This document shows, one piece after another, positions 17,105 to 59,687 of a stretch of DNA of 64,000 nucleotides. The stretch is taken from positions 682,001 to 746,000 of the forward strand of contig NC_135823.1 in NCBI RefSeq assembly GCF_964213995.1, read 5' to 3'. The position numbers were made by a program, and so were the translations under genes. Source of the DNA: Mustelus asterias (Eukaryota). Numbering within the stretch: the first letter of the stretch is position 1; every line of letters begins with the position of its first letter. The notes under the pieces were generated by a model that was not told where the DNA came from, searched no databases, and saw only the letters and a program-made list of their open reading frames with translations.

Positions 17105-18020
17105 AACACAAAGATAAGTGGAAAAGTGAATCCTGTGGAGGGCGTAGAAGGTCTGCAGAGATATTTGAACAGGCTGAGTGAGTGGGCGAGGATCTGGCAG
17201 ATGGAGTATAACGTTGACAAATGCGAGGTTATACACATTGGAGGAAATAATAGCAAATTGGATTATTTAAATGGAAAACAATTACAACATGCTACTGTGC
17301 AAAGGGACCTGGGGGTCCTTGTGCATGAGATGCAATAACCCAGTCTGCAGTTGCAACAGGTGATCAAGAAGGCAAATGGGGTGTTGGCCTATATCGCAAG
17401 GGGGATAGAATATAAAACAGAGATGTCTTGCTGCATCTGTATAGGGCATTGGTGAGGCCGCAGCTGGAAAACTGTGTGCAGTACTGGTCCCCTTATTTGC
17501 GGAAGGTTATTTTGGCCTTGGAGGGAGTGCAGAGACGGTTCACCAGGTTGATACCAGAGATGAGGGGTGTTGATTATGAGGAGAGACTGAACAGATTGGG
17601 TTTCTACTCGTTGGAATTTAGAAGGCTGAGGGGGGATCTTATAGAGACCTATAAGATAATGAAGGGGCTGGATAGGGTATCGGTGGAGAGATTCTTTCCA
17701 CTTAGAAAGGAAGCTAGAACTGGAGGGAACAGCCTCAAAATAAAGGGGGGTCAGTTTCGGACAGAGTTGAGGAGGAACTTCTTCTCTCAGAGGGTGGTGA
17801 ATCTCTGGAATTCTCTGCCCACTGAAGTGGTGGAGGCTTCCTCATTGAATATGTTTAAATCACGGATAGATGGATTCCTGATCGGTAAGGGAATTAGGAG
17901 TTATAGGGATCAGGCGGGTAAGTGGAACTGATCCACTTCAGGTCAGCCATGATCTCATTGAATGGCGGGGCAGGCTCGAGGGGCGAGATGGCCTACTCCT
18001 GCTCCTATTTCTTATGTTCT
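17105..18020 (+). mobile_element. CR1 LINE 3' fragment
   Basis: WQMEYNVDKC, RPQLENCVQYWSP, tail tcttatgttctta. Same subfamily as 39187-39873. Confidence 0.9.
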
Positions 18021-18494
18021 TATTAACTGCACCTTTTCTGTTCCCTGTCAATCCTTGCTGGGGCAGCCCGGTGGCACCATGGTTAGCACTGCTGCCTCCC
18101 AGCGCCAAGGAACGGGGTTCGGTTCCCGGCTTGGTTCACCGTCTGTGCAGAATCTGCACGTTTTTCCCGTGTCTGCCTGGGTTTCCTCTAGGTGTTCCGG
18201 TTTCCTCCCACAGTCCGAAAGATATGCTGTTTACTTGGATTGGCCGTGCTAAAATCTCACTCAGTCTACCCGAACAGGCGGCAGAATGTGGCGACGAGGG
18301 GTTTTTCACAGTAACTTCATTGCAATGTTAATGTGAGCTGACTTGTGCCTGATAAATGAACTTTAGCATACTTTTCTCAGATTAGGAAGAATCGTGCTCT
18401 GGACGCAAAATCTGGCCTAACTGATGTGAGTAAGATAGATGAGGTATTTTGTCGAACATGTCGAATGGTCGCAGGCACCTAGACCTGTAGTAAA

Positions 18495-18507
18495 CAGGAA
18501 AACCGCA
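18495..18507 (+). promoter_or_regulatory. Adjacent ETS (CAGGAA) and RUNX (AACCGCA) sites in the putative promoter of the VJ-C1 gene
   Basis: caggaa-aaccgca lies about 165 bp upstream of the leader ATG. Motif match only. Confidence 0.4.
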
Positions 18508-18668
18508 GAGAGATCTCGACCTCGGTTCTATTTTCCAACACCAGTCATGTTTTAATTCATATGCACAGTGCGCACATTTCACACGTCCCTCACACAGAGA
18601 GAACAAGAGCGAGTTCTCAGTGAGATTCGGAACGGGGGATCAGAGTCTCACCTTTTGGGTCAAGGACA

Positions 18669-18711
18669 ATGAGTTTCCTCAGGATCTGTACATTGTTCCA
18701 CCTCTTCCAGG
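18669..18711 (+). CDS. Exon 1: signal peptide (leader) exon
   Basis: acaATG (A at -3) encodes MSFLRICTLFHLFQ followed by G|gtgaga, a phase-1 donor. Splicing to 20805 gives ...FQVTVS-QATLSQ, the typical split leader of Ig/TCR V genes. Confidence 0.78.
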
Positions 18712-21700
18712 GTGAGATGTCCTCATTATATTCAGATAAAGTGGAGGAGGATTTGGACAGAACGAAGAGGCAGAAATTGTTTTCATTGGCAGGAGTGCCG
18801 GGAACAAAGGGAACATGGATACAAGAATTTGGTAAAAGTACAAGAGAGGGAGATGAGGGGACTTTTTTCTTACCTGTCCGAATTGCTGTGATCTGGAGGG
18901 CTTTGCCTGAAAGGGCGGTGGAAGCAGATTCAAGAGGAACTTCCAAAAGGGTTTAATTGGAACTTTCAAAATGGGGGAACTGGTTACATAATTGAAGGGG
19001 AAAAATTTAGTAATATTAGCTAAATCTTTCAAAGACTCAAAGCCGACTCGAAGGGCCGAAAGGTCTCCCTCTTGATTCTGCGGTACTATACGATGTGAGT
19101 TAGCGTGTAAGTTTAACATAACAACGAAACAAATATTGCTGTGAAAATGGGAAGTCGATTAATAACAATGATTAGAAAGGAATTAATCTTAATTGCCATT
19201 TCTCCTGAGATATGACGTGTGAGTGGGCTCCGTTAACAATATTGGCCACTTTGGAGAAGAAACAATTTCAAGTAGAACTTCAGAGTGTGTTACAAGCTTT
19301 TGGCGAAAAAAGCGCCCAAAGTCAGCGGAGGAGAAGAAGAAATGAAGCAATGACAGAAAATGCTGGAACATCTCAGCGGCACACTAGTTAGCACTGCTGC
19401 CTCTCACCATCCGGCCCTGGGTTCGATTCCCGGCTTGGGTTACTGCCTGTGTGGAGTTTGCAATTTCTTGCCGTGTCTGCGAGAGTTCCCTCTGGGTGCT
19501 CCTGTTTCTTCCCACAAGCACAAAAATGTGCGGGTTAGGTTCATTGGCTGTGCTAAATTGCCCCATCGTGTCAGGGGGTCAGCAGGGTAAATAAGTGGGA
19601 TTATGGTGATTGTGATCAGTGCAGACTCGATGGGCCATTCGGCCTCTTTCTGCACTGTAGGGGCTCGACGATTCTAGGCCAGAGAGCATGAAGCTCTGTC
19701 GGAGGGTAATCCACATTCGGAGTGTTGGGTCTATTCTCTCTCCACACATACTCTCAGACCGAGAATCATACAGTCCTGAACGAGGCCATTTGGCCCATCG
19801 AGTCTGCACTTATCACAATTCCCATAACCCAACAGAGATTTTCCAGCATTTTCTGTTTTTGGTTCAGATTCCAGCATCCTCAGTCAGTTGGTGTCATATA
19901 AGGAGAGAGTGGGATGTAAACAATAGTTGAGAAATGTAGTTTCACTGTAGCTCTTCATGTGATTAACATTACACAGATCACACGCGAATCCTGCCCAGTA
20001 TTCAAATCAGATTTACTGGTGAATGGATTCGCATTGTACCTTTCGAAAGTGAGGAGGAAAATGGGGCAATTGACCGCCATAGTTAGAGGGATTTAAAAGT
20101 GCGATTTTAATTTTGAATCAGGCATTTTTTAAAATTTCATTTGATTCATTATTGTCACATGTATTAGCATACAGTGGAAAGTATTGTTTCCAACGCATTA
20201 TATAGAAAAAGCATACCATTCATAGAGAAGGAAAGGAGAGAGTGGAGAATATCGTGTTACCATCTTCGCTGGGGTGTAGAAAAAGATCAGTTTAATGCCA
20301 GGTCGGTCCATTCAAAAGTCTGATGGCAGCAGTGAAGAAGCTATTCTTGAGTCGGTTGGTACGTGACCTCAGACTTTTGTATCGTTTTCCGGACAGAGGA
20401 ATGCGGAAGAGAGAATGTCCGGGTTGCGTTGCGTCATTGGTTATGCTGGCTGCTTTTCCTGACTCGGTTAAAGTCCAACAGGGTTATTTGGTAGCAAAAG
20501 CCACACAAGCTTTCGGAGCTCTCAGCCTCGGGGCTTAGAGCTCCGAAAGCTTGTGTGGCTTTTGCTACCAAATAAACCTGTTGGACTTTAACCTGGTGTT
20601 GTTAAACCTCTTACTGTGTTTACCCCAGTCCAACGCCGGCATCTCCACATCATGCTTTTCCTGAGGCAGCGGGAAGTGTCGATGGAGTCAATAGATGGGA
20701 GGCTGGTTTGATTATTTACTCCCAATCGGCGTATTATGTTCGGGGGCTGTCTTCAGGGAATGTTCCATAACCTGAGGTGACTGTTCTCTCTCTCTCTCTC
20801 CCAGTTACAGTGTCTCAGGCCACCTTGTCCCAGTCTCCGCCGGTTCAGACCCTCCCTGCCGGGAGTCCTGTTAATCTCAGTTGTCGTATCCAGGGTCAAG
20901 CTGCTAGCTATGTCCACTGGTACAGACAGAGGGAGAGAAACGACATGGATTTGGTTTACACAGCGTTCCAGAACAGTCGAACTGAGGGGAGGTTTTCCAG
21001 CGAGATTTCTGAAAAAGCGGGCATTTGTTCACTAATCATTGCGGATTCCCAGAAAAATGATTCTGGGATGTATTACTGTGCAATCCCCAATTATCAAAAC
21101 ATGGTGCAAATATTTGGAAACGGCTCCAAGTTAGTGATCACAGGTAAATTCAATTATCATTCCATTGCAGTGGATATCTCAAAGCAATCAAAGTGTCCTG
21201 TTCAACCGGTTAATGGGTTCTCTGTTTCATTTGTCGGATTTAGCCGGTTCTCCCACCATATTCCTCCTCACCCCGCCGCTGGATGAGATTCCTGCCATGG
21301 AAAGAGTCCCGTTGTTGTGTTTGGTCAGAGGCGTGTCTCCCGATTCCTTTGCCGTGCGCTGGAATGTTTCGGGGCGGGATACCGAGGGACAGTCCGATTC
21401 GGGGACGCTGGAGCCGGACGGGACCTACACCATCAGGAGTTACATCAGCCTCTCGGTGGAAACTTGGCGAAGTGGCACTCACTGTACTTATGCCGTTCAG
21501 GTCAACTCCGGTGAAAGTATTCTCATTGAAAGTGTCTCATCTCAGAGAGGTAGCTATTCACAATGATCTTTTCTCAAGCCCTTTAACGTTAACGGGACAC
21601 TTCACGAAGAACAGTCCAACTTTGGAAATTAGCAATGTCTCTGCGGGTATCTCCATGGAGGTCCAATTCATCGCTGTCCTATCACGGCCCTTCCAATCGT

Positions 21701-24700
21701 TCAGAGTTTCGATTTCTGGCTCTTTAACGCTTTTTCGTTGCCGTAGAGAGCCGTGGATGTTCAATCACTGAAGCACATTTGTGAAAACGGATAGATTAAA
21801 GGGTAAGGGGAAAGGGTGGGAAAGTTAAGTTTATGTACACGGTTACCCATGGTGTTATTGAAAGGCAGAGTAGACAGGACAGGCCGAATGGCCTCTTTCC
21901 CTCCCCCACTTCTTGTGTCTGCCGAAGACACCGTTACATTTCTGAAGCTCAGGGACCACTCGGTCGGTGTTTCAAATTGAAATGTGTGATTATACCCTCT
22001 GTGTTGCACTTCATCTCAGCACGGTGGGGAACCATTTATTTATCCCTTCGTCTCTCTCTACTTCAATCCCTTTCAATTGCACCGTGCTACACGTTATCTG
22101 CGCAATGGCACATTAGCATTGCTGCCTCACTGCTCCAGTGACCCGGGTTCAATTCCGGCTTTGGGTGACTGTGTGTGTGGAGTTTGCATGTTCTCCCCGT
22201 CTCAGCGCGGGTTTCCTTCAGGTATTGCGGATTCCTCCCACACTCCAAAGGTATTCGTGGAAGTGGAAATGACTAGGGTTGGGAAGCATTTTCCGATCGG
22301 GGCCATTGTGATCTCCTGGACTCGTTTCGATCGCCTCAGGGGGTCGGAGAGGAATTTCCCAGATTTTTTTTTTCCCCATATTGGCCCTGGGGTTTTTCAC
22401 TCTGGGTTTTCGCCTCTCCCTGGAGATCACATGGTCTGGAATGGGGGGGTGGGGGTAAGTTAATAGGTTGTAATGAACAAAGCATCGTAGCTGTGAGGGA
22501 CAGCTCGGTGGATAGGATATTGGTATGTAGATAGGCTGGAAAATTGGGCGGGGATCCTGGATTCAGGATTCAATCCTGGACCAGGGAGCGGCGCGGGCTT
22601 GGAGGGCCGAAGGGCCTGTTCCTGTGCTGTATTGTTCTTTGTTCTTCTTTGTTCTTTGTTCTTTGTATGCAGGTTACGTGGATTGGCCGTGCTAACTTGC
22701 CCCTTAGTATGCAAAGATGTGCGGGTTAAGTGGATTGGCCACGCTAACATTCCTCTTAGTGTCCAAAGAGGTGCAGGTTATGTGGATTAGCCATGCTAAA
22801 ATACCCTTTAGTGTCCAAGGACATGCAGGTTATGTGGATTGGCCATGCTCAATTGACGCTTAGTGTCCAAAGATGTGTGGGTTAGGTTAATTAACCATGC
22901 TAAATTGTCAGGGTAAATACTTGGGCTCGCGTGGTTGGGCCCTGGGTGGCACTGATGTTGTGCTTGCTCGATGGGCCGAATAGACTTAGAACAAACAAAG
23001 AACAAAGAACAATACAGCACAGGAACAGGCCCTTCGGCCCTCCAAGCCCGCGCCGCTCCCTGATCCAAACTAGACCATTTTTTCGTATCCCTCCATTCCC
23101 ACTCCGTTCATGTGGCTATCTAGATAAGTCTTAAACGTTCCCAGTGTGTCCGCCTCCACCACCTTGGCCGGCAGGGCATTCCAGACCCCCACCACCCTCT
23201 GTGTAAAAAACGTCCTTCTGATATCCGTGTTAAACCTCCCCCCCCCTCACCTTGAACCTATGACCCCTCGTAAACGTCACCACCGACCTGCGAAGAAGCT
23301 TTCCACCGTTCACCCTATCTATGCCTTTCATAATTTTATACACCTCTATTAGGTCGCCCCTCATCCTCCGTCTTTCCAATGAGAACAACCCCAGTTTACC
23401 CAATGTCTCCTCATAACTAAGCCCCTCCATGCCAGGCAACATCCTGGTAAACCTCCTCTACACTCTCTCTATAGCCTCCGCGTCCTTCTGGTAGTGTTGC
23501 GACCAGAACTGGGCACATTATTCCAAATGCGGCCGAACCAACGTTCTATACAACCTCAACATCTGACCCCAACTTTTATACTCTATGCCCCGTCCTATAA
23601 AGGTCAGCATGCCATATGCCTTCTTCACTACGCTCTCCACCTGTGCCTTCACATTCAAGGATCTGTGGACTTGGACACCCAGGTCCCTCTGCGTATCTAC
23701 ACCCTTTATGGTTCTGCCATTTATCGTTTAGCTCCCCCTTACGTTAGTTCTACCAAAATGCATCACTTCGCATTCGTCTGGATTGAACTCCATCTGCCAT
23801 TTCTTTGCCCAAATTTCCAGCCTATATATATCCTTCTGTAGCCGCTGACAATGTTCCTCACTATCTGCAAGTCCAGCCATTTTCGTGTCGTCCGCAAACT
23901 TACTGATCACCCCAGTTACACCTTCTTCCAGATCGTTTATATAAATCACAAACAGCAGAGGTCCCAATACAGAGCCCGGCGGAACACCACTAGTCACAGG
24001 CATCCAGCCGGAAAAAGACCCTTCCACTACCACCCTCTGTCTTCTGTGACCAAGCCAGTTCTCCACCCATCTAGCCACCTCCCCCTTTATCCCATGAAAT
24101 CCAATCTTTTGCACCAACCTACCATGAGGTGTGTACTGTAGGGATTTTATGATCTGTCCAGTTGTTAATCTTCCCAAGTTAACCTCCCCTCCCTCCGCTT
24201 CTCTCTCTCAATCCTCCTTTTTACCCTTGTGTAGCTTTTCGGTCAGTCTGTCCGAAGACCCTGATTGCAACTCTTTCACTCTCACTCTACCTTCAGCTAT
24301 TTATCTCCCTCTCTCTCCCTCCCTGCCTCTGTCTCTCCCTCTACTTATTGTTTAACTAGTATTCCCCAGCGTTCCATCTTTACTTTTTTTATGCTAGTTA
24401 CATGGTGCTCCAAGTAAGTGTCTACCCATCTCTCTCTGCATTATCTACTTTGTTCTCTTCTTTTCTCTCTTTCTCGAAACCTCTCTCAATGTTTCATCAT
24501 TGGAAATCGAGCTAAATAATTCTGTGTAAGTTATCTGCTCTGCCTATCTCTCCATCTCTAGTCCCGTTTGAACAGTGATCCATCAGATTGCTGCTCTAAT
24601 TTTCAATCATTTATTCTTTCAATATATCTGGGGAATTTTTTCATGAGGTGGAGATGCCGGCGTTGGACTAGGGTAAACACAATAAGAAGTCTAACAACAC

Positions 24701-27700
24701 CAGGTTAAAGTCCAACAGGTTTATTTGGGAGCAAAAGCCACTAGCTTTCGGAACAGGCTGTCCCTTCGCCAGGTGGGTGGGAGTTCTGATCACAAACAGG
24801 GCACAAATACACAACCTCAATTTACATGAATAATGATTGGAATGTGACTCTTTACAGCTAATCAAGTCTTAAAGGTACAGACAATGTGAGTGGAGGGAGC
24901 ATTAAACACAGGTTACAAAGATCTGTATTGTCTCCAGACAGGACAGCTCGTGAGATTTTGCACATCCAGGCAGGTTGTGGGGGTTACAGATAGTGACATG
25001 AACCCAATATCCCGGTTGAGGCCGTCCTCATGTGTGCGGCACCTGGCTATCAGTATCTTCTCAGCGACTCTGCGCTGTCGTGTGTCGTGAAGGCCCTCTT
25101 GGAGAACGCTTACCCGGAGATCAGAGGCTGAATGCCCGTGACCACTGAAGTGCTCCCCAACAGGAAGAGAACAGTCTTGCCTGGAGATTGTCGAGAGGTG
25201 TGCATCCGTTTTCCTCGCGTCTGCATGGTTTCCCCAGTGTACCATGCTTTGGGAGGCATGCCTCCCGAGGCATGGCACATTGGGGAAACCATGCAGGCGC
25301 TGCGACAACGGATGAATGAACACCGCTCGACAGCTGTAAACCTCCACGAATCTTTGATTCTATCTTGTGCTTTATTTCTCTGTTGTTTCAACTGTGCTTT
25401 GTAACATCTTGGTTCTTACTCCTCCCTGAATCTTTCACTCTCTCCCTCTTTCTCTTTGTGTGCCTTGTTCAAAAAGTGCTCAGTCCCTCTGTCACTGTCT
25501 GTCCCTTCCTCCCCCTGTGTCCTGTTGGAAAAGTCCTATTTAAAGTCTCTCGATTGGGCAGAGCGGTGGCACAGTCGCGAGCACTGACGCCTCACCGTGT
25601 CAGGTGCCAGTGTTCAATTCCGGCCTCCGATCACTGTCTGTGGAGTTTGCACATTCTCCCCGTGACTGCGTGGGTTTCCTCCGGGTGATTCGGTTGCCTC
25701 CCACAGTCCAAAGATTTGTTCGTTGATTGGCCATTCTAAATTGACCAGAGTGCCAGGGGGATAAGCAGGATAAGTACGTGGGTTTACGTGGATAGCGTGG
25801 GATTGTTGTCAGTGCGGACTCGATGAGCCGAATGGTCTACTTCTGCACTGTGGGATTCAATGACGACTCTCACCCTGAATCTTTCACTCTCTCTCTCTTT
25901 CTCTATGTGCGCCCCATTCAAAAAGTGCTCAGTCTCTCTGTCACTATCTCGCTCGAGCTCTCCCTGTGTCCTATTGGAAAAATGCTACTCTAATACATGA
26001 TGGGAAAGTATGCAAAACGTTTTGCCATTTTCCGGTCAAATTGGAGAGACAGATTTGACAAAATCCTTCGCTTGTTTGATTATTTCCACAATCGATTTTC
26101 TTTGAGTGAAAGTTTAATTCTTTTTGCAGATTCTCCCTCCCCGACCACCTGTCATTTACTGTTTCCTGGGGGTTTGTCGGCCGCGGCGCTTCTCCTTCTA
26201 GGATTGGTTCTTGTGGCCGGAAGAAGGATCTGCAGGAACCGGCAGAAAGGTAGCGATTGTTGCGGGATGCTGTTACTCCGCGGCGCTCTCAATCCACTCA
26301 TTTATCACTGAATTATTGACACTTCTGAGCGGGTTCGGTGTGAAATGTAGCCATTTTAAATTTCAGTATAAATTACTCTTTCTAACAGGAACCGCGAACA
26401 GTGATGACGAGCTGACAGAATCCAGGGAACACAAACAGAATAAAGAGGTGAATGAATGGAATTATTGTGGCTATCCCACACGGATACTTTTCATTAATTT
26501 TTTTATCCAGGTTTTAAAATTCATAAAGAACACAGAAAGTTCTAGAAAATCTCAACAAGCCTGGAGGCATCCAGGGACAGAGAAAGTTTCGAGGGAGTCT
26601 GACATTTCATCAGAGCTAGTTCTGTTTTCGTTCATTCGTGGGACATTTGATTTTATTTGATTTATTATTGTCACATGTATTAGCATACAGTGAAAACTAT
26701 TGGTTCTTGAACGCTATACAGACAAAGCATACCATTCATAGAGAAGAAAAGGAGAGACTGCAGAATGCAATGTTACAGTCATAGCTAGGCTGTGGAGAAA
26801 GATCAACTGAATGCGAGGTATGTCCATTCAAATGTCTGATGGCAGCAGGGAAGAAGCTGTTCTTGAATCGGTTGGGACATGACCTCAGACCTTTGTACTT
26901 TTCTTCCTGATGGAAGGAGTTGGAAGAGAATATGTCCAGGGTGCATGTGGTCCGTGATTATATTGGTTGCTTTTCCGAGGCGGTAGGAAGTGCAGACAGT
27001 GTCAATGGATGGGAGGCTGCGTTGACTGATGGACTGGACTCTGTTCACAACCCTTTGTTGTTTCTTGCGTTCTTGGACAGAGCAGGAGCCATACCAAGCT
27101 TACTCACTTTGAAAGCAAAAATAAGAAGGCAGATTACTCGCTGAATGGTTCTAACTTGGGAGAGAGGAGTGTGCAGCAGGACGTGGGTGCCTTTTTTCAC
27201 CAGTCCATGAAGTTAATACAGATACAGCACGGGGTAAACAAGGCAAATTGCATGTTGGCCCTCATGGCGAGAGGTTTCGATTACAGGAGCAGGGATGTGT
27301 TGTTGCAATTATACAGGGCCTTGGTGAGGCCACCCCGAGCGTATTATGTGCACTTTTAGTCTCGTTTTCTGAGGAAGGATGTTCTTGCTCTCGCGAGAGT
27401 GCAGCGAAGTTTTACCAGGCTGATTCCTGGGATGGCAGGACTGATGTATGAGCAGATGTTGACTAGGTTACGATTCTTTTCGCTGGCGTTCAGACGAATG
27501 AGGGGGAATCTCATAGAGACTTATACAATTCTAATAGGACTAGACACAGTAGACTAGACACCGTGATCTCCCGATGGTGGGAGAGTCCCGAACTAGGGAT
27601 CAGTCTGAGGATTCGGGGTAGACCATTTAGGACGGTGATGAGGAGAAATATCTTCACCCAAAGAGTGGTGAGCCTGTGGAATTCATTACCACAAGAAGTA

Positions 27701-28505
27701 GTTGATGTCAAAATATTGAATGTATTCAAGAGGTGGCTAGAGATAGCACTTGGGGCGAATGGGATCAAAGGTTATGGGGAGAAAGCACGATTAGGTGATT
27801 GAGTTGGAAGATCAGCCATGATCGTGATCAATGGTTGAGCAGGCTCGAAGGGCTCAATTGTTTTCTCCTTGCTCCTAACTTCTATAGAAACATAGAAGCA
27901 TAGAAAACCTTGTTCCTATGTTATGTGTAAAAGCAGCCAGCATAATCAATGACCCCTCGCATGCTAGACATACTCTCTTCTTCCATCGGGAAAAATATAC
28001 ATAAGTCTGAGTTCACGTACCAACCGACCCAAGAACAGCTTCTTCCCTGCTTGAATGGACCTACATTTAATTAAGCTGGCCTTTCTCTACATCGCTAGCT
28101 ATGATTGTAACACTGTAACCTACACCCATCGCTTTCCTTCTCTATGAAACAAAACTTTTCACTGCAATACATGTGACAATAATCAATCAAATCAAAACAC
28201 TTCACATAACACGGGGCTGAATTCTGGAATACTCACCACCAAAAAGCTATACAGAGCAGTGGACAATTGAAACTCTCAAAATTGAGAGGGGTAGATTTAC
28301 GTTAGTGACTGGATTGAGGATTATTCAATGTTGGTGGATGTATGTGAGTTGAGCTGCTAGTAGTCATGAACAGATTGAATAGAGTGGAGGGCCTCAATGG
28401 CCTCACCTATCCCTATAATAATGGTGTGGATTACACGAACAGATCACTTTTTATCCACAGACACTTTACGCTCGCCTAGCCTTCAATGAGGATCCAACAC
28501 TCTAA
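18669..28505 (+). CDS. Non-rearranging VJ-C1-TM-ITSM/ITIM immunoglobulin-superfamily receptor (PRARP/VJ-C1-like); join(18669..18711,20805..21143,21244..21549,26130..26249,26389..26447,28461..28505), 303 aa
   Basis: Six exons joined by GT-AG introns of phases 1,1,1,1,0 give one uninterrupted frame (912 nt including TAA): MSFLRICTLFHLFQ|VTVSQATLSQSPP...YYCAIPNYQNMVQIFGNGSKLVIT|AGSPTIFLL...VSSQR|DSPSPTTCHLLFPGGLSAAALLLLGLVLVAGRRICRNRQK|GTANSDDELTESREHKQNKE|TLYARLAFNEDPTL*. Four N-glycosylation sequons (NLS, NDS, NGS, NVS). The family assignment is inferred from architecture only. Confidence 0.85.
20135..20710 (-). mobile_element. Rex1-type LINE 3' fragment (intron 1), interrupted by Penelope fold-back element
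   Basis: Same 3' region and tail as the other Rex1-type copies (also at 4605-4962 +, 16575-16855 +, 26650-27100 -, 27925-28197 +). Confidence 0.8.
20463..20652 (+). mobile_element. Penelope-derived fold-back mini-insertion
   Basis: Inverted arms; 12-bp TSD tgcttttcctga (20451-20462 / 20653-20664). Confidence 0.85.
20805..21143 (+). CDS. Exon 2: germline-joined V-J Ig domain
   Basis: Acceptor (ct)n-cccag at 20804. V-set hallmarks: LSQSP, VNLSC (Cys 20882), WYRQ, GRFS, D-SG-YYC (Cys 21077), then the J motif FGNGSKLVIT in the same exon. Donor ACAG|gtaaat. No RSS between V and J. Confidence 0.95.
21244..21549 (+). CDS. Exon 3: C1-set Ig domain
   Basis: Follows a 100-bp intron (tttag|CC). PTIFLLTPP, LLCLVRGVSP, VRWNVSG, DGTYTIRSYISL and TWRSG are typical C1 motifs. 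Phase-1 donor AGAG|gtagct. Confidence 0.92.
22251..22664 (+). mobile_element. Non-coding element with CR1-type 3' tail inserted into an HE1 SINE
   Basis: The last ~85 bp match the CR1 tail at 49388-49460. The body is unrelated to that CR1 and contains long self-complementary arms. Confidence 0.65.
22988..24130 (-). mobile_element. CR1 LINE 3' fragment inserted in an HE1 SINE tail (intron 3 of VJ-C1 gene)
   Basis: RT motifs in ORF 23728..24177; tail near-identical to the 47868-49460 copy. Confidence 0.9.
24643..25335 (-). mobile_element. Penelope-like element 3' part (GIY-YIG C-terminus + pLTR) with 5' fold-back
   Basis: WYTGETMQT, LPVGEHFSGHGH, GLNRDIG on the minus strand; hairpin centred on gggaggcatgcctccc (25251-25266). 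Confidence 0.85.
26130..26249 (+). CDS. Exon 4: connecting peptide with Cys, transmembrane helix and basic stop-transfer segment
   Basis: Acceptor tctttttgcag|AT (phase 1). Encodes DSPSPTTCHLLFPGGLSAAALLLLGLVLVAG-RRICRNRQK. Donor AAAG|gtagcg. Confidence 0.85.
26389..26447 (+). CDS. Exon 5: cytoplasmic segment
   Basis: Acceptor ctctttctaacag|GA, donor GAG|gtgaat. Encodes the hydrophilic GTANSDDELTESREHKQNKE; phase 1 in, phase 0 out. Confidence 0.75.
27120..27890 (+). mobile_element. CR1 LINE 3' fragment (intron 5 of VJ-C1 gene)
   Basis: LLQLYRALVRP and FTQRVVSLWNSLP motifs. Confidence 0.85.
28461..28505 (+). CDS. Exon 6: terminal coding exon with TxYxxL tyrosine motif
   Basis: Acceptor ctttttatccacag|ACA (phase 0) encodes TLYARLAFNEDPTL-TAA. 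It lies at the start of the first long non-repeat stretch after exon 5. Confidence 0.78.
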   Translation, partial: TLYARLAFNEDPTL

Positions 28506-29369
28506 CTCGAGAGAAAGGAGAGAGAGAGAACGCATTGTGTGCTTCCTGGATGTGTTGCGTTGCAGAAACATTCATCTTGGAGCACGGGAAATTCGGAAAG
28601 TGAAACGGGTGCAAATTCGGGCGGATTAGCGTCTCAATTTTATAATGGCGCCCAAAGTGGAAAATGAATCTTCTCTTAATGACCGCCATTCTAAGACGGA
28701 ATGTCGCCTAAAATGCAATTTCACCTCTTCATGCTTCTACCTTCTCATATGGGTTTTACAATTCTATTCTGCATTTTCTACCATAATTGTGAAAGAAATA
28801 GTTCAAATGTATCTGTGTCCCAGTCACCAAAATATTGAAACAGAGTTTGAAAACCAACTTCGTGTGTGATTTCAGTTTCCTTTCGGTTCCAGAACAAATG
28901 TGTTTCCATTGGCTCTTGAGCTAATTCATAGAGACGTTTTTCGAGTGAATGTGTGTGCGTTGGAGGTAGGGTTAAAGCCTGACAAGGCATATTTGCAACT
29001 TTGGATTTCGGCTGCATGAATATGCAATATGCCAAATTAAATGTGTGTTCCCAGTCTTAACTGGATGTACCTTGGTATTAGACACTGTTATATTTAATCC
29101 TGAAAGAACATTAGCTGTAATCCATGTTCCTGTCTGATAACACGGGTAAGTGGATGTGATAGACACGAAGCTGGGAACTCTGACCATTTCCAGCATAAAA
29201 AGAGCCATTCTGCCCGTGAAATCAGCGCCATTCGTTCCAACCGGCAATTCCGTCTAAACTCCCGGCTTTCTCCCAATGTCCCTGACAACTATTCCCCTTT
29301 CACCACAACACCCTTTCAATCTTATTTCCCCCCCCCCCCCCCTTAATTCTCAGTAAATGGTCGTACTTG

Positions 29370-29712
29370 GATACGGAGGCGATGGTCCAGTGGTTTATCG
29401 CTGGACTCATAATCTAATAAAGTTAGCTAATGCGACCAGGATTCGTATCCCACCACGGCAGATGATAAAATTTGGATTTAATAAAAAAAACTCTGGAATT
29501 AAGAATCTACTGATGACCATTGGCGATTGTCGAAAAATAACACCTGGTTCACTAATATCACTAAAATCTGCCGTCCTTACCCGTCTGGCCTACATGTGAC
29601 TCCAGAGCCACAGCAATGTGGTTGATTCTCAACTGCATTCCAAGGGCAACTAGGGATGGGCAACAAATGCTGGCCAGCCAGCGACGCCCATGTCCAACGG
29701 ATGAATAAATAA
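29370..29712 (+). mobile_element. tRNA-derived SINE, SacSINE1-like
   Basis: B box ggattcgtatcc; core aaatctgccgtccttacccgtctggcctacatgtgactcc; tail tagggatgggcaacaaatgctggcc...atgaataaa. Related copies at 4120-4415(+) and 31470-31600(-). The family name is from recall. Confidence 0.6.
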
Positions 29713-52399: not shown

Positions 52400-53705
52400 A
52401 TAGCGGGACAAGGACAGTTGGGACCCCCTGGGTCCCTAATAAACGAATATATGATTAAGAGGGACAAACTCATGAAACAGATGATAAAAGGGGAATGGGA
52501 TTTAGACTACCCACTGGACCAACAACGAAAATGGTTGGAAAAGGAAAGGAAAAACAGAACTAAGAAAGTTGGAGTTCTCTTTGTTCACCAATTGGCTGGA
52601 TTAATTGAACACGTTTCAGTCTCGGGTAAGAAATGGGCTATGACAAAGAAAAAATTCAAATTTTGGAAGCACGCAATAGAGAATTAGAAAAGAGAAACCA
52701 ACTTTTAGGGGACCCCGGCTGGGGACCCTTGCCTCCCTATGGGCTGGCCGTACAATCCACAGCACCAGTGGGAGACCCCGGTGAGGAAGAGGTCCATGAT
52801 CTCGCTCCCATACCTCGGGCCGGGACATTGCAGAATCCCACTGCACGATACCAACCTTTTACCCCAGGAAAAAGACAGCAAGTTCTAACATCCTGGGAAA
52901 GCTCCAGCCCCGGATCAACAATAGCAAATTTTGGGCAGAACTGGACACCCTTTGGGTTGGACACCAGTTACATTTGGGGGATGTACACCAGTTGGTACGG
53001 GCTGCTAGCCCCCAGGATAAGTGGAGACTAATGGGTGATGGGACAGGTCAAGCTGACGCCGAATGACCTAGGTTCGATTACCGAGGCGGGAGGTGGACGT
53101 AAGCGACAGCGACAAACGCCGAGATCGAGGAAATGATTGAACCATTTAATCGGTTTAAGGCGGAACTCCAACGGGCCTTGGACAACGCACCAACCAATTG
53201 GTCTATAATCGCCAATATTAAACAGCATAGGAGTGAGGGAGCCTCCGAATTTGGGGAGCAACTCTTTAGACGATACCAAGAATGTTCGGGCATACCCAAA
53301 GCTGCCCGAAAAGATAGAGACTTTTTACAAGCATTTAAAGATGGGCTGTCGTCAGCTCACCACAAAATCCTTAAAATGGGAGTTCTCAATAACCAGACTT
53401 ATGATAAATTAGTTGAATGGGCATCTGGAATTAGAGATGGACCAGATGAGCAATCATACCCACGAATAAAACAGGAATTTTTTTTTGCAAACAATGGAGA
53501 AGCTAAACCAAGGGGTGCGTGCCATAATTGGGAGAAACTGGGTCACTTCATCAAAAGCTGTTGAGCTCCAAAGAGGGGTAGTGGGAAGGCTCCGACCTGT
53601 CTGTTTTGCAATAAGGTTGGTCACACTGAGGCCACCCGTTGGAGCAAGCACGGCAGACCGAGGCAACTTCCCCTTCCACCTTCCCCCGTGGAGGAAGGGA
53701 ACTGA
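52400..53705 (+). pseudogene. gag: ERV gag (disrupted) with two CCHC zinc knuckles
   Basis: Probable ATG>ATA start at 52400. Capsid-like segment IKQHRSEGASEFGEQL...FLQAFKDGL. Knuckles CHNWEKLGHFIKSC and CLFCNKVGHTEATR, each with one mutated ligand. Ends at TGA 53703-53705. Confidence 0.85.
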
Positions 53706-56700
53706 CGGGAGGCAGCCCCCGCAAGCCTGGGTAGAAAGGACGGTAGAATCTTCGTGTCTGCACTAGTAGGGGGCAGACCATGCGAAATGCTGGTGGTCAC
53801 GGGAGCCTCCATGTCCATCACTGACCTACCCTTGCCCACCACGAATAAAATGATTGATATAAGGGGTGTGAAGGGAAAGAAGACCCCTGCCTACTGAAGT
53901 GCAACCACCCTCGTAGAAATTAACAACTTGTATATACCTAAGCGATTTTATGTATGTAAAAATAATGAAGGAGCCTTTATGGGAAATGACCTGATGAAGG
54001 AATACGAAGTCTTAATACATTGCGGGAAAGGCGTATTGATTTGGCCCCGCCCCGGTGGGAGAAAAGACAGTGTAGGAACATATGTAAACCATTTAGGAAC
54101 CATCCATGCAGCATCTGCAACTGGACGCAACTGGCGGTGAGAAGGTAATGGATTTGGCGCCATCTGCGCCTCTATCCCCGAGGTATGGGCAGAAACGAAA
54201 CTCGATACTGGATTAGTTAAAATTCCCCCTACAATAGTGGAAGGACCAGAACATCACCCACATCGACAATACCCGATTAAGCCCAAGGCCAAAAAGGCAG
54301 TCGAAGAAATTGTAAAGGGATTGGTAAAAAGGGGGATCCTACGGGAGACCACTAGTACCACCAACTCCCCCACCTGGCCGGTGCCTAAACCGGACGGGAG
54401 TTATAGATTAACCATTGAATATGCCGCTTTAAATGAAGTGACCCCCAAGCTACACCCTATCGTAGCTAGCCCCTCCACCATTTTAAACGGGTTGTCACCA
54501 TCCCATGGAATCTTTACGGTATTAGACATAGCCAATGGATTTTGGTTCATTCCCCTGGAACTTAATTCACAGGATAAATATGCATTTACCGTAGGCGATA
54601 AACAGTACACATGGACTGGGCTCCCACAAGGCTTCCAGAACAGCCCGGCTATATTTCACCGGGTAATGATTAAGATATTAGCACAAGTCGAGGTCCCACG
54701 GGGTAGCACAATTCTGCAGAATGTAGATGACATCTTAATAGCCTCCGAAACTAGAGCAGATCACCAGACGGCACTATACTCAGTCCTGAAACACTTAGAA
54801 GAACAGGGACTAAAGGCGAGCCCCAGGAAGGCCCAAATAGGGAAAACGAAGGTTTTATATTTGTGACACCTGATATCCCAGGGGACCAAAGAAATGCCTT
54901 TGGAAAGGAAAACAGGCATATAGCAACTGCCAAGACCAGTAACCGTCCGAGGGGTAAGAAAGGTTTTGGGGTGATTTAATTACAACCGCAACTTTATACT
55001 GGAATTCGCAAGGATAGCCGAACCAATACAAAGGCGAGTTAAAGGGGAGAAGCCCGCTCTAGAAGTTATAGAATGGGGATCAGAACAGAAAAGGGCATAT
55101 AGTAAACTAAAAGTAGAACTAATGAAGGCTCCAGAACTTGGACTGCCTGACGCTCGTAAAGATTTTCATATCTATTGTAATAACGAAGGGGGGTTTTATT
55201 CGGCAGTAGTCACACAGGTCCATGGGGACAAGCAGCGACCCGTGGGTTATTATTCCACAGCGGAGGGCCCCGTAGTAGCCGGATTACCCAGATGCATAGC
55301 TACACTGGATTGCGAGGCATGGGCAATAAATGTCAGTGAGCCCATCATAATGACGGGGAATATTGTTTTACACACCAAACATACCTTGGTGGAAATATTG
55401 AACACAGGAAAATTGCGGCCTGTCTCAAATATGAGAAGGGCGAATTGGGAGGCAGTGCTTCTCCCACCCACTAAGTCCATCACGACTGTACGAGACATGG
55501 GAATGAACCCCGCAGAAGGAATGCTAGGTGAAGGGTCCCCCCACTCATGTGGGGACGGAGACGAAGAGGTAGAGGAGAGGAGAATAAACGATGAGCCCCT
55601 GGAAGTACCAGATTTGGTCCTGTTTGTGGATGGATCACGGAAATATTTAGAAGGGTCACCACGACAGGATGGGCGGTCGTAAATGCGGATGTAAAAATTG
55701 TTCAAACAGGAAGGATAGAGGGAAGCATGTCACTGCAAGTGGCGGAACTTCACTCAGGCTTTTACCGAGGCGGCGGGGAAAAGGGTCAACATTCACACCG
55801 ATAGCAGATATGCGTTCGGAATTGTACACGACTATATGACCGTTTGCGGGAGAAGCGGATTCGTCACTACGGGAGGCACTCCAATGAAACATGGCCAAAT
55901 AATAACAACTTTATTGAAAGCCAGCGAGCTCCCACCGGAAGCAGCGGTATTGAATGTAAAGGCACATCAAAGTGAACCAGACAAACAAAGTCCTGAGTGG
56001 CATATCTTTAAGGGAAACCAGGCAGCCGACAAAGCGCACAATCCGCTTTGGAAACGGGGGAGGTGCAGGCCTTGCCGGCCGTCTCGGCTAAAACCGAATC
56101 CCCGATAGACATCTCACAGCTGCATGCTGACACCCCTGACGAAGAACGTGTGAGGTGGAAAGCTCAAGGAGCTACACCTGATGGAAGGGGTGTATGGAGA
56201 TTAAATGATAAAGTTCTAGCCCCAGAATGTATCCAGCATACTTTGATGCAGTTACATCATGGGCAGTCGCATGTGGGAAGGGATGCCTTGCTGACCAGTA
56301 TAGGGAAGGAATGGTGGTGGAAAGGAATGGGACGGGACATTGCCCGATATTGTCACCGGTGCATAACCTGTGCACATTATAACCCTGGAAGACCCGTAAA
56401 AATCGAGATGGGGCATCAGCCTCGCCCCAAGTGTCCCTGGGAACACCTGCAAATTGACTTTTCAGGACCTCTTCCTCAGTCACACGGGAGAACCTACTGC
56501 TTGGTAATAATTGATCAATTCACCAGATGGGAAAAAGCATTCCCGACGAAAAATTGTTCTGCCACTACAGTGGCTAGAAGTTTACCTGAGGAAGTTATCC
56601 CAAGGTGGGCGGGGGGGGGGGGGGGGGGTGCGGTGCCTTTGCAAATAGACTCCGATCAATGCACACACTTTACGGAGAAGGGAGTAAAGACCATTTGTCA

Positions 56701-57304
56701 ACTGCTGGGGATAAAACAGAAATTTCACATACCCTACCACTCTCAAAGCTCAGGAATGGTGGAACGTATGAATAGGACACTTAAGACTTCCAAATCGAAG
56801 GCCATGCAGGAATCAGGAAAGAGATAGACAGAAGTATTACCCGCCATATTAATGAAACTCAGGGCCACCACAAATAGGACCATTGGGCTGACACTATATG
56901 AACTAATGACCGGAAGGGCTGTGCAGTTGCCCGAGTCCATCATTACTAGAGGGGCAGATGTCGGCCCATTACGGGACAGGATTAGATGATATGTGTTAGA
57001 GTTAAGCTCCCAATTAAAAGATATGCGGAAAATAGTACGGGACAAACAAATAGTGGTAGATGAGCACAATAAACTGGAACAGACCCCGGAGGTACCCCCG
57101 GTGGGCAGCAAGGTTATGGTAAAAACACTACCCGGAAAACGTGGATTTGCCCCCAAATGAAATGGCCCTTATGAGGTCATTATCAGTGGAGACAATTGTG
57201 CCAGCATATATATGCAAGGTCGGGGTGTCTGGAAGCATTGGACTCAGTTAAAAGAATACACTAATTACCGCAACAATACAGTTAAAAGGGGAGTGAAGGG
57301 TTAA
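53706..57304 (+). pseudogene. pol: ERV pro-pol (protease, RT, RNase H, integrase), disrupted
   Basis: MLVVTGAS (DTGA mutated); RT motifs QYPI, NSPTWPVPKPDGSYRL, LDIANGF, LPQGFQNSP, QNVDDILIA (YVDD mutated); RNase H LFVDGS and HTDSRYAF; integrase HHCC, WEHLQIDF, SDQCTHF, SSGMVERMNRTLK; C-terminal GPY motif. Confidence 0.92.
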
Positions 57305-58326
57305 AAGAAAACAAACAGGTTGTAAGTTTTTTTCTCTCTCTCTCGAGAGATGTAATTGCGATCGAGAGCATCATGTGGTGGAATAGGGTATAGCAGAACA
57401 ATGCGAGTTTAGTAAATTATTTTCCCCAGTAAAGTTTACGATAGGGGCATCGGACTGAGATTTGAGGGATGTAAGAAAAGTAGCATCACATTACATCTGA
57501 AAGGTTGTAAGGAGAGTTAACCAAAGGCACACAGTAGATTCGACCTTGTATCTGCCTGTGTTGGTTACAACCCTGGCATGTGACCTTAATGGGGAAAGCG
57601 ATGTCTTTTTATAGAATTAGCGAGCTGCAGCCAGTGCAAAGTGTTGTTTGATTCGCACCAAGCCAACTGAAGGGTCTGTTTATTTCTTCAGAATAAACTC
57701 GACTGATCTAAAGTAAATATGCCATTCTTTAAGCATTGTTTTCGAAATAACGGTTATTTTAGAGAAAGGAGGGAGAGGGAGAGAGAGCAGCCAAAAACCA
57801 GCGCTGAGATTGAACAATTCGAGACATAGCCTGGATCGAACTAACTGAACATCGATCTGTTTCTACAGCATAATTAAATAATTAGATATTATTATGACAT
57901 ACAAGCAGTCTCCAGCTACATCAACAATTTGCTTTTGTGGCCATGAGAAAGTTTGTTTACCTGACGTTGTACTATCAGAGAATGCAGCTAAGTTTCTAGG
58001 TTGGACACCGAATTCCAAGCTGATGTGGCCAAATTAGCTTAATTTAACTTAAAGCATAGCACAATTAATTACATTGGGCAAAAATACTTTGAATGAAATC
58101 TTTGCACTGGCGAAAGCCATACAGACATCGGGAAAGGTATATGGAAATATTGAAAAATATATGCTGGAATTAATTGGAAAAATATGTGATAAACTCCAAT
58201 TGTCGATATAAACAAACAACGACTGACCTCCAAGCAAGCTGAACGGGTTCGCGGAATGTTGCGCGTGGGCGATATAGCCTTTGGTTCATTGTATAACGGT
58301 CGCGCAGGATATTAGTAAGTGAACAG

Positions 58327-59687
58327 ATGCTTCTCATGCTGATACTCACGGCCCTCGCCCTGTTAGCCACAGCGGGAATGTATAAATTGAATTATAAGGA
58401 GTTAGGGATGAAGCACAGTGATCATCTTTGCAACGATGACTCTGTCTATTGTATGAACACCTTTGTGTATATGTCTTATCTGTATGCATCACAATCGAAT
58501 CTGAGCAAGTGCTGGGTCTGTTCACACATTCCGATGCACGGAGGAAAGGGAGGAATTCCTTTATTCCCTGTCCCTTTTTCAGCTATTCTAACAATAGAAT
58601 GGGTTTTAAATCAGAATGGATCCCAGGGAGGAACAAGGAAACTGCCATTTAAAACCCAATCGGATACCACTATGCAGGGTATCAGCAACAGTGAGGTTGT
58701 CTCAAGATTAGGGGGCGGAGGGTGCACTTTATCGACCTTTAAGAAACATTACCAACCCAACTATGACAGATCAGATTCCCCACCCTACTTCATTGTGAAA
58801 AATCAACAAAGGGGAGCTATCTGCCTGACAAGAAATGGAACCATACCTGTTGGCCGTAGCAACTGTACACAGCAGATTGATATCACTGATGATGCTGAGG
58901 CCATGATAGAGGTCACAATCCAGTGCCCCATCGCCACTGTCCCGGTTAGCCTCTCCTCCGCTTATATAAGCGCGATGACTGCATATAACAGTATCTATTT
59001 TGTCTGTGGAAACAATGCCTATGCGTGGCTTCCCTGGAATTGGATAGGATCGTGGTATTTGGCATATGTGGTGCCTTATATTCACCATTACACTGACTTA
59101 CGGGACCACCCCGCGATACACCTGCATAGGGCTAAGCCAGCCATTAGTGAGACACAACGGTTCTTTATGATAGCCTACCCATTTTTTGGGACGGCAAAGG
59201 CAGCACAGGAACTGATGCAGATGGCCTCAACCCGAGAAAAATTGCAAATGAGACTAAAAATGTGTTCGAGGAGGTGAGCACGGGGCCGTCTCTGAAATAT
59301 CAGCAGAGGTCGTAGCTATTCGGATTGTGGCGTTACAGAACCGATTAGCACTCGATTATGTGCGACCCTCCCAAGGAGGAACATGTGCCAAAGTTGGCTC
59401 CGAATGCTGTACGTATATTCCCGATGCTTCATATTAAACACGTGGCGAAAACAATGCAGGATGGAGAGAACCAATATCACGATTATAACCCTCCGGGCTG
59501 GCTGGGGCAATGGTTTGGGTTGTGGGGTGCATACGTGATGCATGGGTTGATTGTATTAATTGCAATCGTAATTACTTGCTGTGTTTGTATGGCATTATTG
59601 AACACCTGTCGCAAAACAGTAACAGCGCAAATGATGACGGTCGCAAGTGTACAGGCGGAGGGACAGACCTCCCGACGAAGAAGCTAG
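58327..59687 (+). pseudogene. env: ERV env, gamma-type, frameshifted in TM subunit
   Basis: Signal peptide MLLMLILTALALLATAG; SU CWVC motif; furin site degraded to RAKP. In a shifted frame (about 59320-59425): immunosuppressive domain VALQNRLALDY and CX6CC (CAKVGSECC). Membrane anchor GLIVLIAIVITCCVCMALL. Confidence 0.9.

What the first reader, a model, noticed from the sequence alone, without database searches (positions are those of the whole stretch)
26130..28505. Signalling end: stalk cysteine, uncharged TM and a single TLYARL ITSM/ITIM-type motif
Seen: Cys at 26150 just before the TM. The TM (LLFPGGLSAAALLLLGLVLVAG) lacks Lys, Arg and Asp. There is a juxtamembrane RRICR, and the tail ends KE-TLYARL-AFNEDPTL. 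Established: TCR chains need charged TM residues to pair with CD3, TxYxx(V/I/L) motifs recruit SHP-2 or SAP-type SH2 proteins (as in PD-1 and SLAM), and stalk cysteines form inter-chain disulfides. Inference: a disulfide-linked homo- or heterodimeric inhibitory/switch receptor with a TCR-like ectodomain that signals without CD3.
Basis: partly seen in the sequence, partly recalled or inferred. Interest (0 to 1): 0.7.

Follow-up and report, generated by a model that had tools for sequence, protein, structure and literature searches.

The report
Shark germline VJ-C1 inhibitory receptor chain
This shark gene encodes a never-rearranged, T-cell-receptor-shaped surface protein, one of about 50 copies of two ancient chain types, whose conserved stalk cysteine and tail tyrosine likely make it a disulfide-linked immune brake (probably the PRARP family first found in chicken), although this copy has lost a key structural cysteine.

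Summary
Observation confirmed. 26130-28505 holds exons 4-6 of a six-exon shark gene: leader, single-exon VJ, C1, stalk Cys plus uncharged TM, and two tail exons ending in TLYARL. The 303-aa model equals RefSeq XP_078095901.1. The stalk Cys (27 of 28 aligned relatives) and the Tyr (26 of 28) are conserved from sharks to reptiles.

The gene lies in a cluster of at least 25 'A' and 24 'B' copies. A and B are separate lineages reaching from sharks to reptiles (A also to birds), usually on one contig; both have a stalk Cys, a neutral TM and one tyrosine motif. This fits PRARP (Fu 2019; paper not held, recalled), but orthology to the chicken genes was not tested.

Likely mechanism: a CD3-independent disulfide dimer (A/B or A/A) whose two tyrosines together engage SHP-1/2. 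Caveats: TLYARL fits neither strict ITIM nor strict ITSM; RefSeq also models an exon-5-skipped, tyrosine-less isoform; and only this copy, of 24 with open V and C1, lacks the second C1 cysteine, so it may be crippled. The scan noted what looks like this family before in another shark (e1-9982905). New member of a known kind; moderate interest.

The parts
18669..18711 (+). Exon 1: ATG and signal peptide, phase-1 donor (split leader as in antigen receptors)
   Evidence: matches the N-terminus of RefSeq P0215/P0001
20805..21143 (+). Exon 2: single-exon V domain with joined J motif (FGNG); no heptamer inside; extra Cys89
   Evidence: Pfam V-set E 3.4e-16; exact heptamer scan of 18000-29000 found sites only at 18564 and 25846
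21244..21549 (+). Exon 3: C1-set domain; F strand reads C-T-Y where relatives have C-x-C (codon 21489-21491), so the canonical second Cys is missing
   Evidence: Pfam C1-set E 7.9e-8; Cys at this column in 27 of 28 rows of A2 and 26 of 26 of A3
26130..26249 (+). Exon 4: stalk with Cys237 (26150-26152), uncharged TM, juxtamembrane RRICR with Cys264
   Evidence: stalk Cys in 27 of 28 rows; juxtamembrane Cys in 18 of 28
26389..26447 (+). Exon 5: cytoplasmic spacer; skipping it shifts the frame of exon 6 and removes the tyrosine
   Evidence: the skip product equals RefSeq isoform X2, P0001
28461..28505 (+). Exon 6 coding part: TLYARL (Tyr292) and stop; first AATAAA at 29416

Best explanation
The gene encodes the 'A' chain of a two-chain family of germline-joined VJ-C1 receptors (probably shark PRARP) that likely forms a disulfide-linked dimer and likely damps immune-cell activation by recruiting SHP-1/SHP-2 without CD3. 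Shown: exon structure, single-exon VJ, C1, stalk Cys, neutral TM, one conserved tyrosine motif, a cluster of at least 25 A and 24 B copies, and A and B lineages shared with bony vertebrates. Inferred: (1) the stalk Cys links two chains, A to B as in TCR alpha/beta, or A to A; (2) the two V domains form a site for an unknown ligand; (3) a Src-family kinase phosphorylates the tail Tyr; (4) because each chain has only one motif, the dimer supplies the two phosphotyrosines that a tandem-SH2 phosphatase needs (an A/B pair would combine T-x-Y-A-x-L with the B motif (I/P)-L-Y-A-S-L, a split version of the ITIM+ITSM tandem of PD-1/BTLA); (5) skipping exon 5 would give a non-signalling decoy chain.
For: Gene model identical to RefSeq X1. 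In 28 aligned A-type relatives: stalk Cys 27, Tyr 26, Ala at pY+1 24, Leu/Val at pY+3 24, Thr at pY-2 18; stalk Cys in 25 of 26 B-type rows. Of 90 TM-bearing relatives: 88 stalk Cys, 1 charged TM core, 75 with YxxV/I/L. Census of 49 loci: 25 A and 24 B, interleaved; V and C1 both open in 10 A and 14 B. V+C1 tree of 55 rows: shark A joins sturgeon/tetrapod A-like rows (92/85), shark B joins paddlefish/lungfish/tetrapod B-like rows (94/81). A- and B-type proteins share a contig of identical length in 10 of 12 species compared by eye, including a 128-kb alligator scaffold. CDR-like loops of A copies show dN/dS 1.08 (7 copies) to 1.28 (5 copies) against 0.47-0.55 in framework and 0.62 in C1. Literature: SHP-2 can bridge single ITSMs on two PD-1 molecules (PMC7078208, abstract); Ala at pY+1 of an ITIM favours SHP1 recruitment (PMC8631942, abstract); SHP binding sites are described as conserved across jawed vertebrates, and SHP-2L as present in sharks (PMC12151841, passages). 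Recalled, not seen: chicken PRARP1/2 form disulfide-linked homo- or heterodimers and carry an ITIM/ITSM.
Against: This copy lacks the F-strand Cys of C1, alone among the 24 copies with open V and C1, so it may misfold. 15 of 25 A loci and 10 of 24 B loci have a broken or missing V or C1 exon. TLYARL matches neither strict consensus (PMC12151841 section 21). Both cross-species tree joins are under the tool's starred threshold, and in the C1-only tree shark A does not join tetrapod A. A and B proteins lay on different contigs in 2 of the 12 species (small-spotted catshark, bamboo shark). The dN/dS pairs are not independent, loop borders were set by eye and no significance test was run. The bird A-type proteins inspected mostly show no tail tyrosine motif in their models. 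No chicken PRARP sequence was available for comparison.
Confidence: 0.6

Rival explanations
1. The family works as described, but this particular copy is crippled or decaying: loss of the C1 disulfide destabilises it and it is retained or degraded.
For: C-T-Y instead of C-x-C, unique among 24 open copies; the other four loci lacking that Cys have broken exons. More than half of the A loci are broken.
Against: All six exons are open with intact splice sites; RefSeq models two isoforms. Cys208, two residues upstream, remains and might allow a shifted disulfide (speculation). The AlphaFold model folds C1 with block pLDDT mostly 78-93, but that is alignment-driven and insensitive to one substitution. 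An assembly error or rare allele at 21490 was not excluded.
Confidence: 0.25
2. The tail is a true SLAM-type switch motif: SAP (SH2D1A) binds it and turns the receptor activating in SAP-positive T cells, inhibitory elsewhere.
For: Thr at pY-2 and a hydrophobic residue at pY-1, which PMC12151841 (section 21) names as needed for SH2D1A binding to CD150; an sh2d1a-like gene is expressed in a bamboo shark T-cell subset (PMC11372145, passage).
Against: pY+3 is Leu, not Val/Ile; pY-2 is S, D, M, V, L or E in 9 of 28 rows; reptile A chains mostly have Glu/Asp at pY-1, so a SAP site would not be conserved.
Confidence: 0.15
3. It belongs not to PRARP but to another VJ-C1 or VJ-I inhibitory family (SIRP-like, NITR-like) or to an unnamed one.
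For: PRARP sequences were not seen; a third related lineage exists in gar, sturgeon and lungfish; no searchable paper describes a shark cluster.
Against: Relatives were found in bony fish, amphibians, reptiles and birds, with no mammal among the named hits listed, and bird members lack a C1 Pfam hit, as recalled for PRARP. One C1 and one tyrosine, unlike SIRP-alpha (V-C1-C1, four tyrosines; recalled); second domain is C1, unlike NITR (I-type; recalled).
Confidence: 0.2
4. It is a germline-joined or retroposed TCR or Ig light chain.
For: V resembles TCR alpha/delta V; the whole ectodomain model matches lambda light chains best; shark IgL genes can be germline-joined (recalled).
Against: Introns are present; no heptamer in the V exon; neutral TM and 40-residue tail; family C1 domains are separated from all 21 Ig-type C rows (97/98); V hits outside the family drop from E 1e-16 or better to 1e-8 or worse.
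Confidence: 0.02

Closest known systems
PRARP1/PRARP2 (Fu et al. 2019, J Immunol 202:1992; citation seen in PMC10751288, paper not held, content recalled)
   Same: Non-rearranging VJ-joined IgSF gene pair; V-C1 outside birds; one ITIM/ITSM-type motif; disulfide-linked homo/heterodimer; present in fish, amphibians, reptiles and birds.
   Different: Chicken has two genes, this shark about 50 loci in birth-and-death flux; I do not recall sharks in that paper's abstract; PMC10751288 lists PRARP among VJ genes in the MHC, whereas here all 140 MHC class I exon hits are on C8 and the cluster is on C23. Sequence orthology untested.
Xenopus VJC1 genes (Ohta et al. 2019, PMC6761025; not held, recalled)
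   Same: Non-rearranging VJ-C1 architecture; a Xenopus relative groups with the B lineage.
   Different: Could not check which described gene that relative is.
UrIg and UrIg2 (PMC12227049, sections read)
   Same: Elasmobranch single-exon VJ plus C1, split leader, disulfide-linked homodimer.
   Different: 3 to 9 C1 domains, liver/gill expression, MHC or IgH/TCR-alpha-delta linkage; likely UrIg-type C exons group with Ig C, not with this family (their identity was judged by likeness only).
TCR alpha/delta chain
   Same: V-J-C1-stalk Cys-TM layout; V most like TCR alpha/delta V in PDB.
   Different: No rearrangement, no charged TM residues, own tyrosine tail, C1 matches Ig C better.
PD-1 / BTLA / SLAM-type tails
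   Same: T-x-Y-A-x-hydrophobic motif; Ala at pY+1.
   Different: One motif per chain instead of an ITIM+ITSM tandem; V-C1 ectodomain with stalk Cys.

Membership tests
PRARP | Single-exon, non-rearranging VJ domain with J motif | tested here: met
   one exon 20805-21143, FGNG, no heptamer in or next to it
PRARP | V-C1 ectodomain (C1 degenerate in birds) | tested here: met
   C1-set hit; bird relatives lack PF07654. This copy lacks the second C1 Cys.
PRARP | ITIM- or ITSM-like tail motif | tested here: met
   TLYARL; Tyr in 26 of 28 rows; a near match to both consensus definitions, a strict match to neither
PRARP | Occurs as a linked pair of two gene types | tested here: met
   A and B interleaved on C23; same contig in 10 of 12 species compared
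PRARP | Sequence orthology/synteny with chicken PRARP1/2 | not testable with these tools
   Paper not held; no hit carried the name; flanking genes not identified
PRARP | Disulfide-linked homo- or heterodimer; expression in B and T cells | not testable with these tools
   Only the conserved stalk Cys is shown; cell type unknown
T-cell receptor chain | RAG-split V and J with RSS | tested here: not met
T-cell receptor chain | Charged TM residues for CD3 assembly, short tail | tested here: not met
Ig light chain | C domain inside the Ig C clade, no TM | tested here: not met
UrIg/UrIg2 | Three or more C1 domains | tested here: not met
   one C1 exon
SIRP | V-C1-C1 with paired ITIM/ITSM tandems (recalled) | tested here: not met
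   one C1, one tyrosine; no SIRP sequence was placed in the trees
Strict ITSM | TxYxx(V/I) | tested here: not met
   Leu at +3; definition from PMC12151841 section 21
Strict ITIM | (S/I/V/L)xYxx(I/V/L) | tested here: not met
   Thr at -2 here; met by paralogues with SVYARL and by ray/reptile B chains

The most novel reading that the evidence does not exclude
A and B form an obligate germline heterodimer, a non-rearranging two-chain receptor built like TCR alpha/beta and kept as a linked pair from sharks to reptiles, with an ITIM and an ITSM-like motif split between its chains. In sharks about 8-10 A and 14 B chains would combine into a germline repertoire on lymphocytes, with exon-5 skipping and rare TM-arginine, tail-less B copies as decoy or activating forms. 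It would be a living model of the two-chain receptor that preceded RAG invasion and a candidate shark NK/T inhibitory receptor system.
Probability: 0.25. Interest if true: 0.75.

Novelty: new member of a known kind. Interest (0 to 1): 0.45.

Why it matters
Non-rearranging VJ-C1 genes are the sought-after relatives of the gene that the RAG transposon split (PMC12227049, introduction). Most described ones are single chains. A linked two-chain family that is about 450 million years old (recalled date), expanded to about 50 loci in a shark and mislabelled in RefSeq as Ig chains gives a direct way to test whether heterodimeric V-C1 pairing predates rearrangement, and a candidate inhibitory receptor family for shark lymphocytes. 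The signalling end alone is an ordinary inhibitory-receptor design.

Tried and rejected
Complex prediction of A (this gene, residues 19-240) with a B chain (P0013): no answer, scores 0.25 and 0.27 under the 0.34 mark, controls not folded, alignments not used; no evidence either way.

Sequencing runs: no RNA holder listed. Laying four runs on 18400-29600 was swamped by repeats and showed no exon joints among the rows listed; it did not settle the base at 21490.

Papers not held: Fu 2019, Ohta 2019, Flajnik 2023. Nine searches for a description of this family or its accessions or its signalling context gave only passing mentions of PRARP in PMC10751288 and PMC11599192; most subscription papers are outside the library. 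Six terms each in the supplements of PMC12227049 and PMC10751288 gave no hit.

Synteny: MHC class I on C8 only; class II beta and Wbp11 searches found nothing and are uninformative; Not3 on C21 and GFO_IDH_MocA hits on C21, C2 and C4, none on C23; a Rho-GDI gene at C23:45 Mb is too far away to help; eight 10-kb flanking tiles held no family exons and were not searched for other genes. Synteny stays open.

Cell type: the three bamboo shark family members I could identify by ID had no row in the held, truncated marker table of PMC11372145; Supplementary Data 3-9 were not held and may bear on this. A first script used two wrong exon ends and was corrected. Three rows were dropped before the V+C tree and 15 before the C1 tree (partial, fused or redundant).
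Full report
Observation. The interval holds the last three exons of a six-exon gene on the + strand: leader 18669-18711, VJ 20805-21143, C1 21244-21549, stalk and TM 26130-26249, tail 26389-26447 and 28461-28505. All junctions are AG/GT and in frame, giving 303 aa. The model is identical to RefSeq XP_078095901.1 of the shark Mustelus asterias, labelled 'Ig heavy chain Mem5-like'. Of 59 acceptor-like sites downstream of exon 5, four gave a frame with such a motif and only 28461 has it at the exon start. Twelve paralogous terminal exons differ mostly at third codon positions (16/16/44) and 11 keep the Tyr. One contig of a probably-RNA run from another organism shows the end of exon 5 directly before exon 6; with 17 loose letters it is below the tool's bar for a bridge and counts as a weak hint.

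Ectodomain. The V exon is a Pfam V-set domain with its J motif in the same exon and no heptamer; its best PDB matches are mostly TCR alpha/delta V domains. The second domain is C1-set and a paralogue's C1 matches Ig constant domains and UrIg2 best (several scores are raised by multi-domain targets). The AlphaFold model (mean pLDDT 76.9) matches lambda light chains and a TCR chain at TM about 0.5. In a C1 tree of 59 rows, all 21 Ig-type C rows form one branch apart from the family (97/98); TCR C domains were not included. 'Antigen-receptor-like' is therefore right; 'TCR-like' holds for the V only.

The family. The window lies at C23:682001-746000. The C1 exon finds a cluster at C23:0.08-1.71 Mb and 3.08-3.27 Mb, with outliers on C73. 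Of 49 loci examined, 25 are type A (this gene) and 24 a second type B, interleaved; V and C1 are both open in 10 A and 14 B (lower bounds, as the search scores only the best candidates). B chains have a degenerate J, an extra Cys pair in V, a stalk Cys, a neutral TM and a PLYASL/ILYASL tail followed by basic residues. Relatives occur in sharks, rays, sturgeon, paddlefish, gar, lungfish, coelacanth, caecilian, Xenopus, turtles, lizards, crocodilians and birds; no mammal appeared among the named hits listed. In the V+C1 tree shark A joins bony-vertebrate A-like proteins (92/85) and shark B joins B-like ones (94/81), with a third lineage in gar, sturgeon and lungfish. These supports are moderate, and the C1-only tree does not resolve the joins. 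A and B proteins share a contig of the same length in 10 of 12 species compared by eye (8 of 10 elasmobranchs, an alligator, a sea turtle; other turtles not tallied); catshark and bamboo shark were the exceptions.

Conservation of the signalling end. In 28 A-type rows: stalk Cys 27, Tyr 26, Ala at +1 24, Leu or Val at +3 24, Thr at -2 18. In 26 B-type rows: stalk Cys 25. Among 90 fetched relatives in which my pattern found a TM, 88 have a stalk Cys, 1 a charged TM core and 75 a YxxV/I/L tail (this set is rich in turtles and not independent). A juxtamembrane Cys, a possible palmitoylation site (inference), is in 18 of 28. The CDR-like loops of A copies evolve at dN/dS about 1.1-1.3 against about 0.5 in framework (no significance test).

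Results against a simple reading. First, TLYARL is neither a strict ITIM nor a strict ITSM (definitions in PMC12151841 section 21). Second, RefSeq also models isoform X2, which skips exon 5, shifts frame and has no tyrosine; I could not check its RNA support. Third, this copy has C-T-Y where the family has C-x-C in the C1 F strand, so the canonical disulfide partner is gone; it is the only such case among 24 copies with open V and C1. Fourth, 25 of 49 loci have a broken or missing V or C1 exon, so decay of copies is common here.

Mechanism. Shown: the anatomy, conservation and pairing above. Inferred: a disulfide-linked dimer through Cys237, most simply with a B chain; no CD3, DAP12 or FcR-gamma association, since the TM is neutral (established rule, recalled); tail phosphorylation and recruitment of a tandem-SH2 phosphatase. 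One motif per chain is enough if two chains cooperate, as reported for PD-1 (PMC7078208, abstract); Ala at pY+1 favours SHP1 in ITIMs (PMC8631942, abstract); the SHP binding sites are described as conserved across jawed vertebrates (PMC12151841, passages). An A/B dimer would place an ITSM-like and an ITIM-like motif side by side. A SAP switch remains possible because pY-1 is hydrophobic and an sh2d1a-like gene is expressed in shark T cells (PMC11372145, passage), but +3 is Leu and reptile A chains have acidic pY-1. Ligand and cell type are unknown. Confidence in the family-level mechanism 0.6; chance that this copy is crippled about 0.25.

Comparison with what is known. The closest family is PRARP (Fu et al. 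2019): a non-rearranging VJ(-C1) gene pair with an ITIM/ITSM and disulfide-linked homo/heterodimers in birds, reptiles, amphibians and bony fish. That description is recalled; the paper was not held and I saw only its citation and passing mentions (PMC10751288, PMC11599192, passages). Four testable features are met; sequence orthology, synteny, dimerisation and expression are untested. One mismatch: PMC10751288 lists PRARP among VJ genes in the MHC, while here all 140 MHC class I hits are on C8. It is not a TCR, an Ig light chain, UrIg (PMC12227049, parts 1 and 3 of 8 and passages read) or SIRP by architecture. I found no description of the shark cluster or of the A/B lineages in the searches listed under Tried and rejected, but the three most relevant papers could not be read and may cover them. 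An earlier unreviewed note of this scan on another shark genome (e1-9982905) reports what looks like the same family and the same candidate name; I had reached that reading before seeing it, and it is not independent evidence.

Verdict. New member of a known kind, interest 0.45. The boldest reading not excluded is an obligate germline A/B heterodimer with a combinatorial repertoire (probability 0.25, interest 0.75).

Noticed in passing
L061 and L057 (G000:C23, about 1.596-1.607 Mb): An Ig light-chain V exon ending in a heptamer-like CACAG and a matching IgL-type C exon lie inside the A/B cluster; no J segment was found by my pattern. A rearranging-type light-chain gene among non-rearranging VJ-C1 genes.
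   Followed up: partly
L036 (G000:C23, about 0.90-0.91 Mb); similar L039 (about 1.14-1.15 Mb): B copy with open V and C1, two arginines in the TM and stop codons in the terminal exon including the Tyr codon: a candidate activating or decoy chain, or a pseudogene. L039 has one TM arginine and Tyr to Cys, but its V is disrupted. No leader exon hit was found for L036.
   Followed up: partly
PMC11372145 Supplementary Data 2 (bamboo shark): Two adjacent gene IDs, LOC122542912 ('Ig kappa light chain-like') and LOC122542911 ('Ig lambda-1 light chain-like'), are the third and fourth T-cell markers (75% of T cells against 5-6% of other cells). RefSeq gives B and A members such names in other sharks, but I could not get the sequences, so their identity is unknown.
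   Followed up: partly
window 21483-21491 and family C1 domains: The family often has Cys two residues before the F-strand Cys (C-x-C; 20 of 28 A rows, 19 of 26 B rows), where Ig C domains have Tyr/Phe. The partner of the extra Cys is unexplained.
   Followed up: partly
window 52630-59535 (+): Endogenous retrovirus in pieces: RT, RNase H and integrase ORFs, followed by an ORF of 326 aa with no Pfam hit that sits where env would be.
   Followed up: partly
G000:C23:670382 and 639949 (L013, L056), just upstream of the window: Nearest neighbours are a broken A-type and a broken B-type copy.
   Followed up: yes
P0097 (Rhinatrema bivittatum XP_029437407.1): A caecilian A-type member is annotated 'programmed cell death protein 1' although it has the V-C1 single-tyrosine layout; probably a mislabel.
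   Followed up: no
window 22668-22903: Tandem array of 4.5 copies of a 52-bp unit in intron 3, within SINE/LINE-rich sequence.
   Followed up: no
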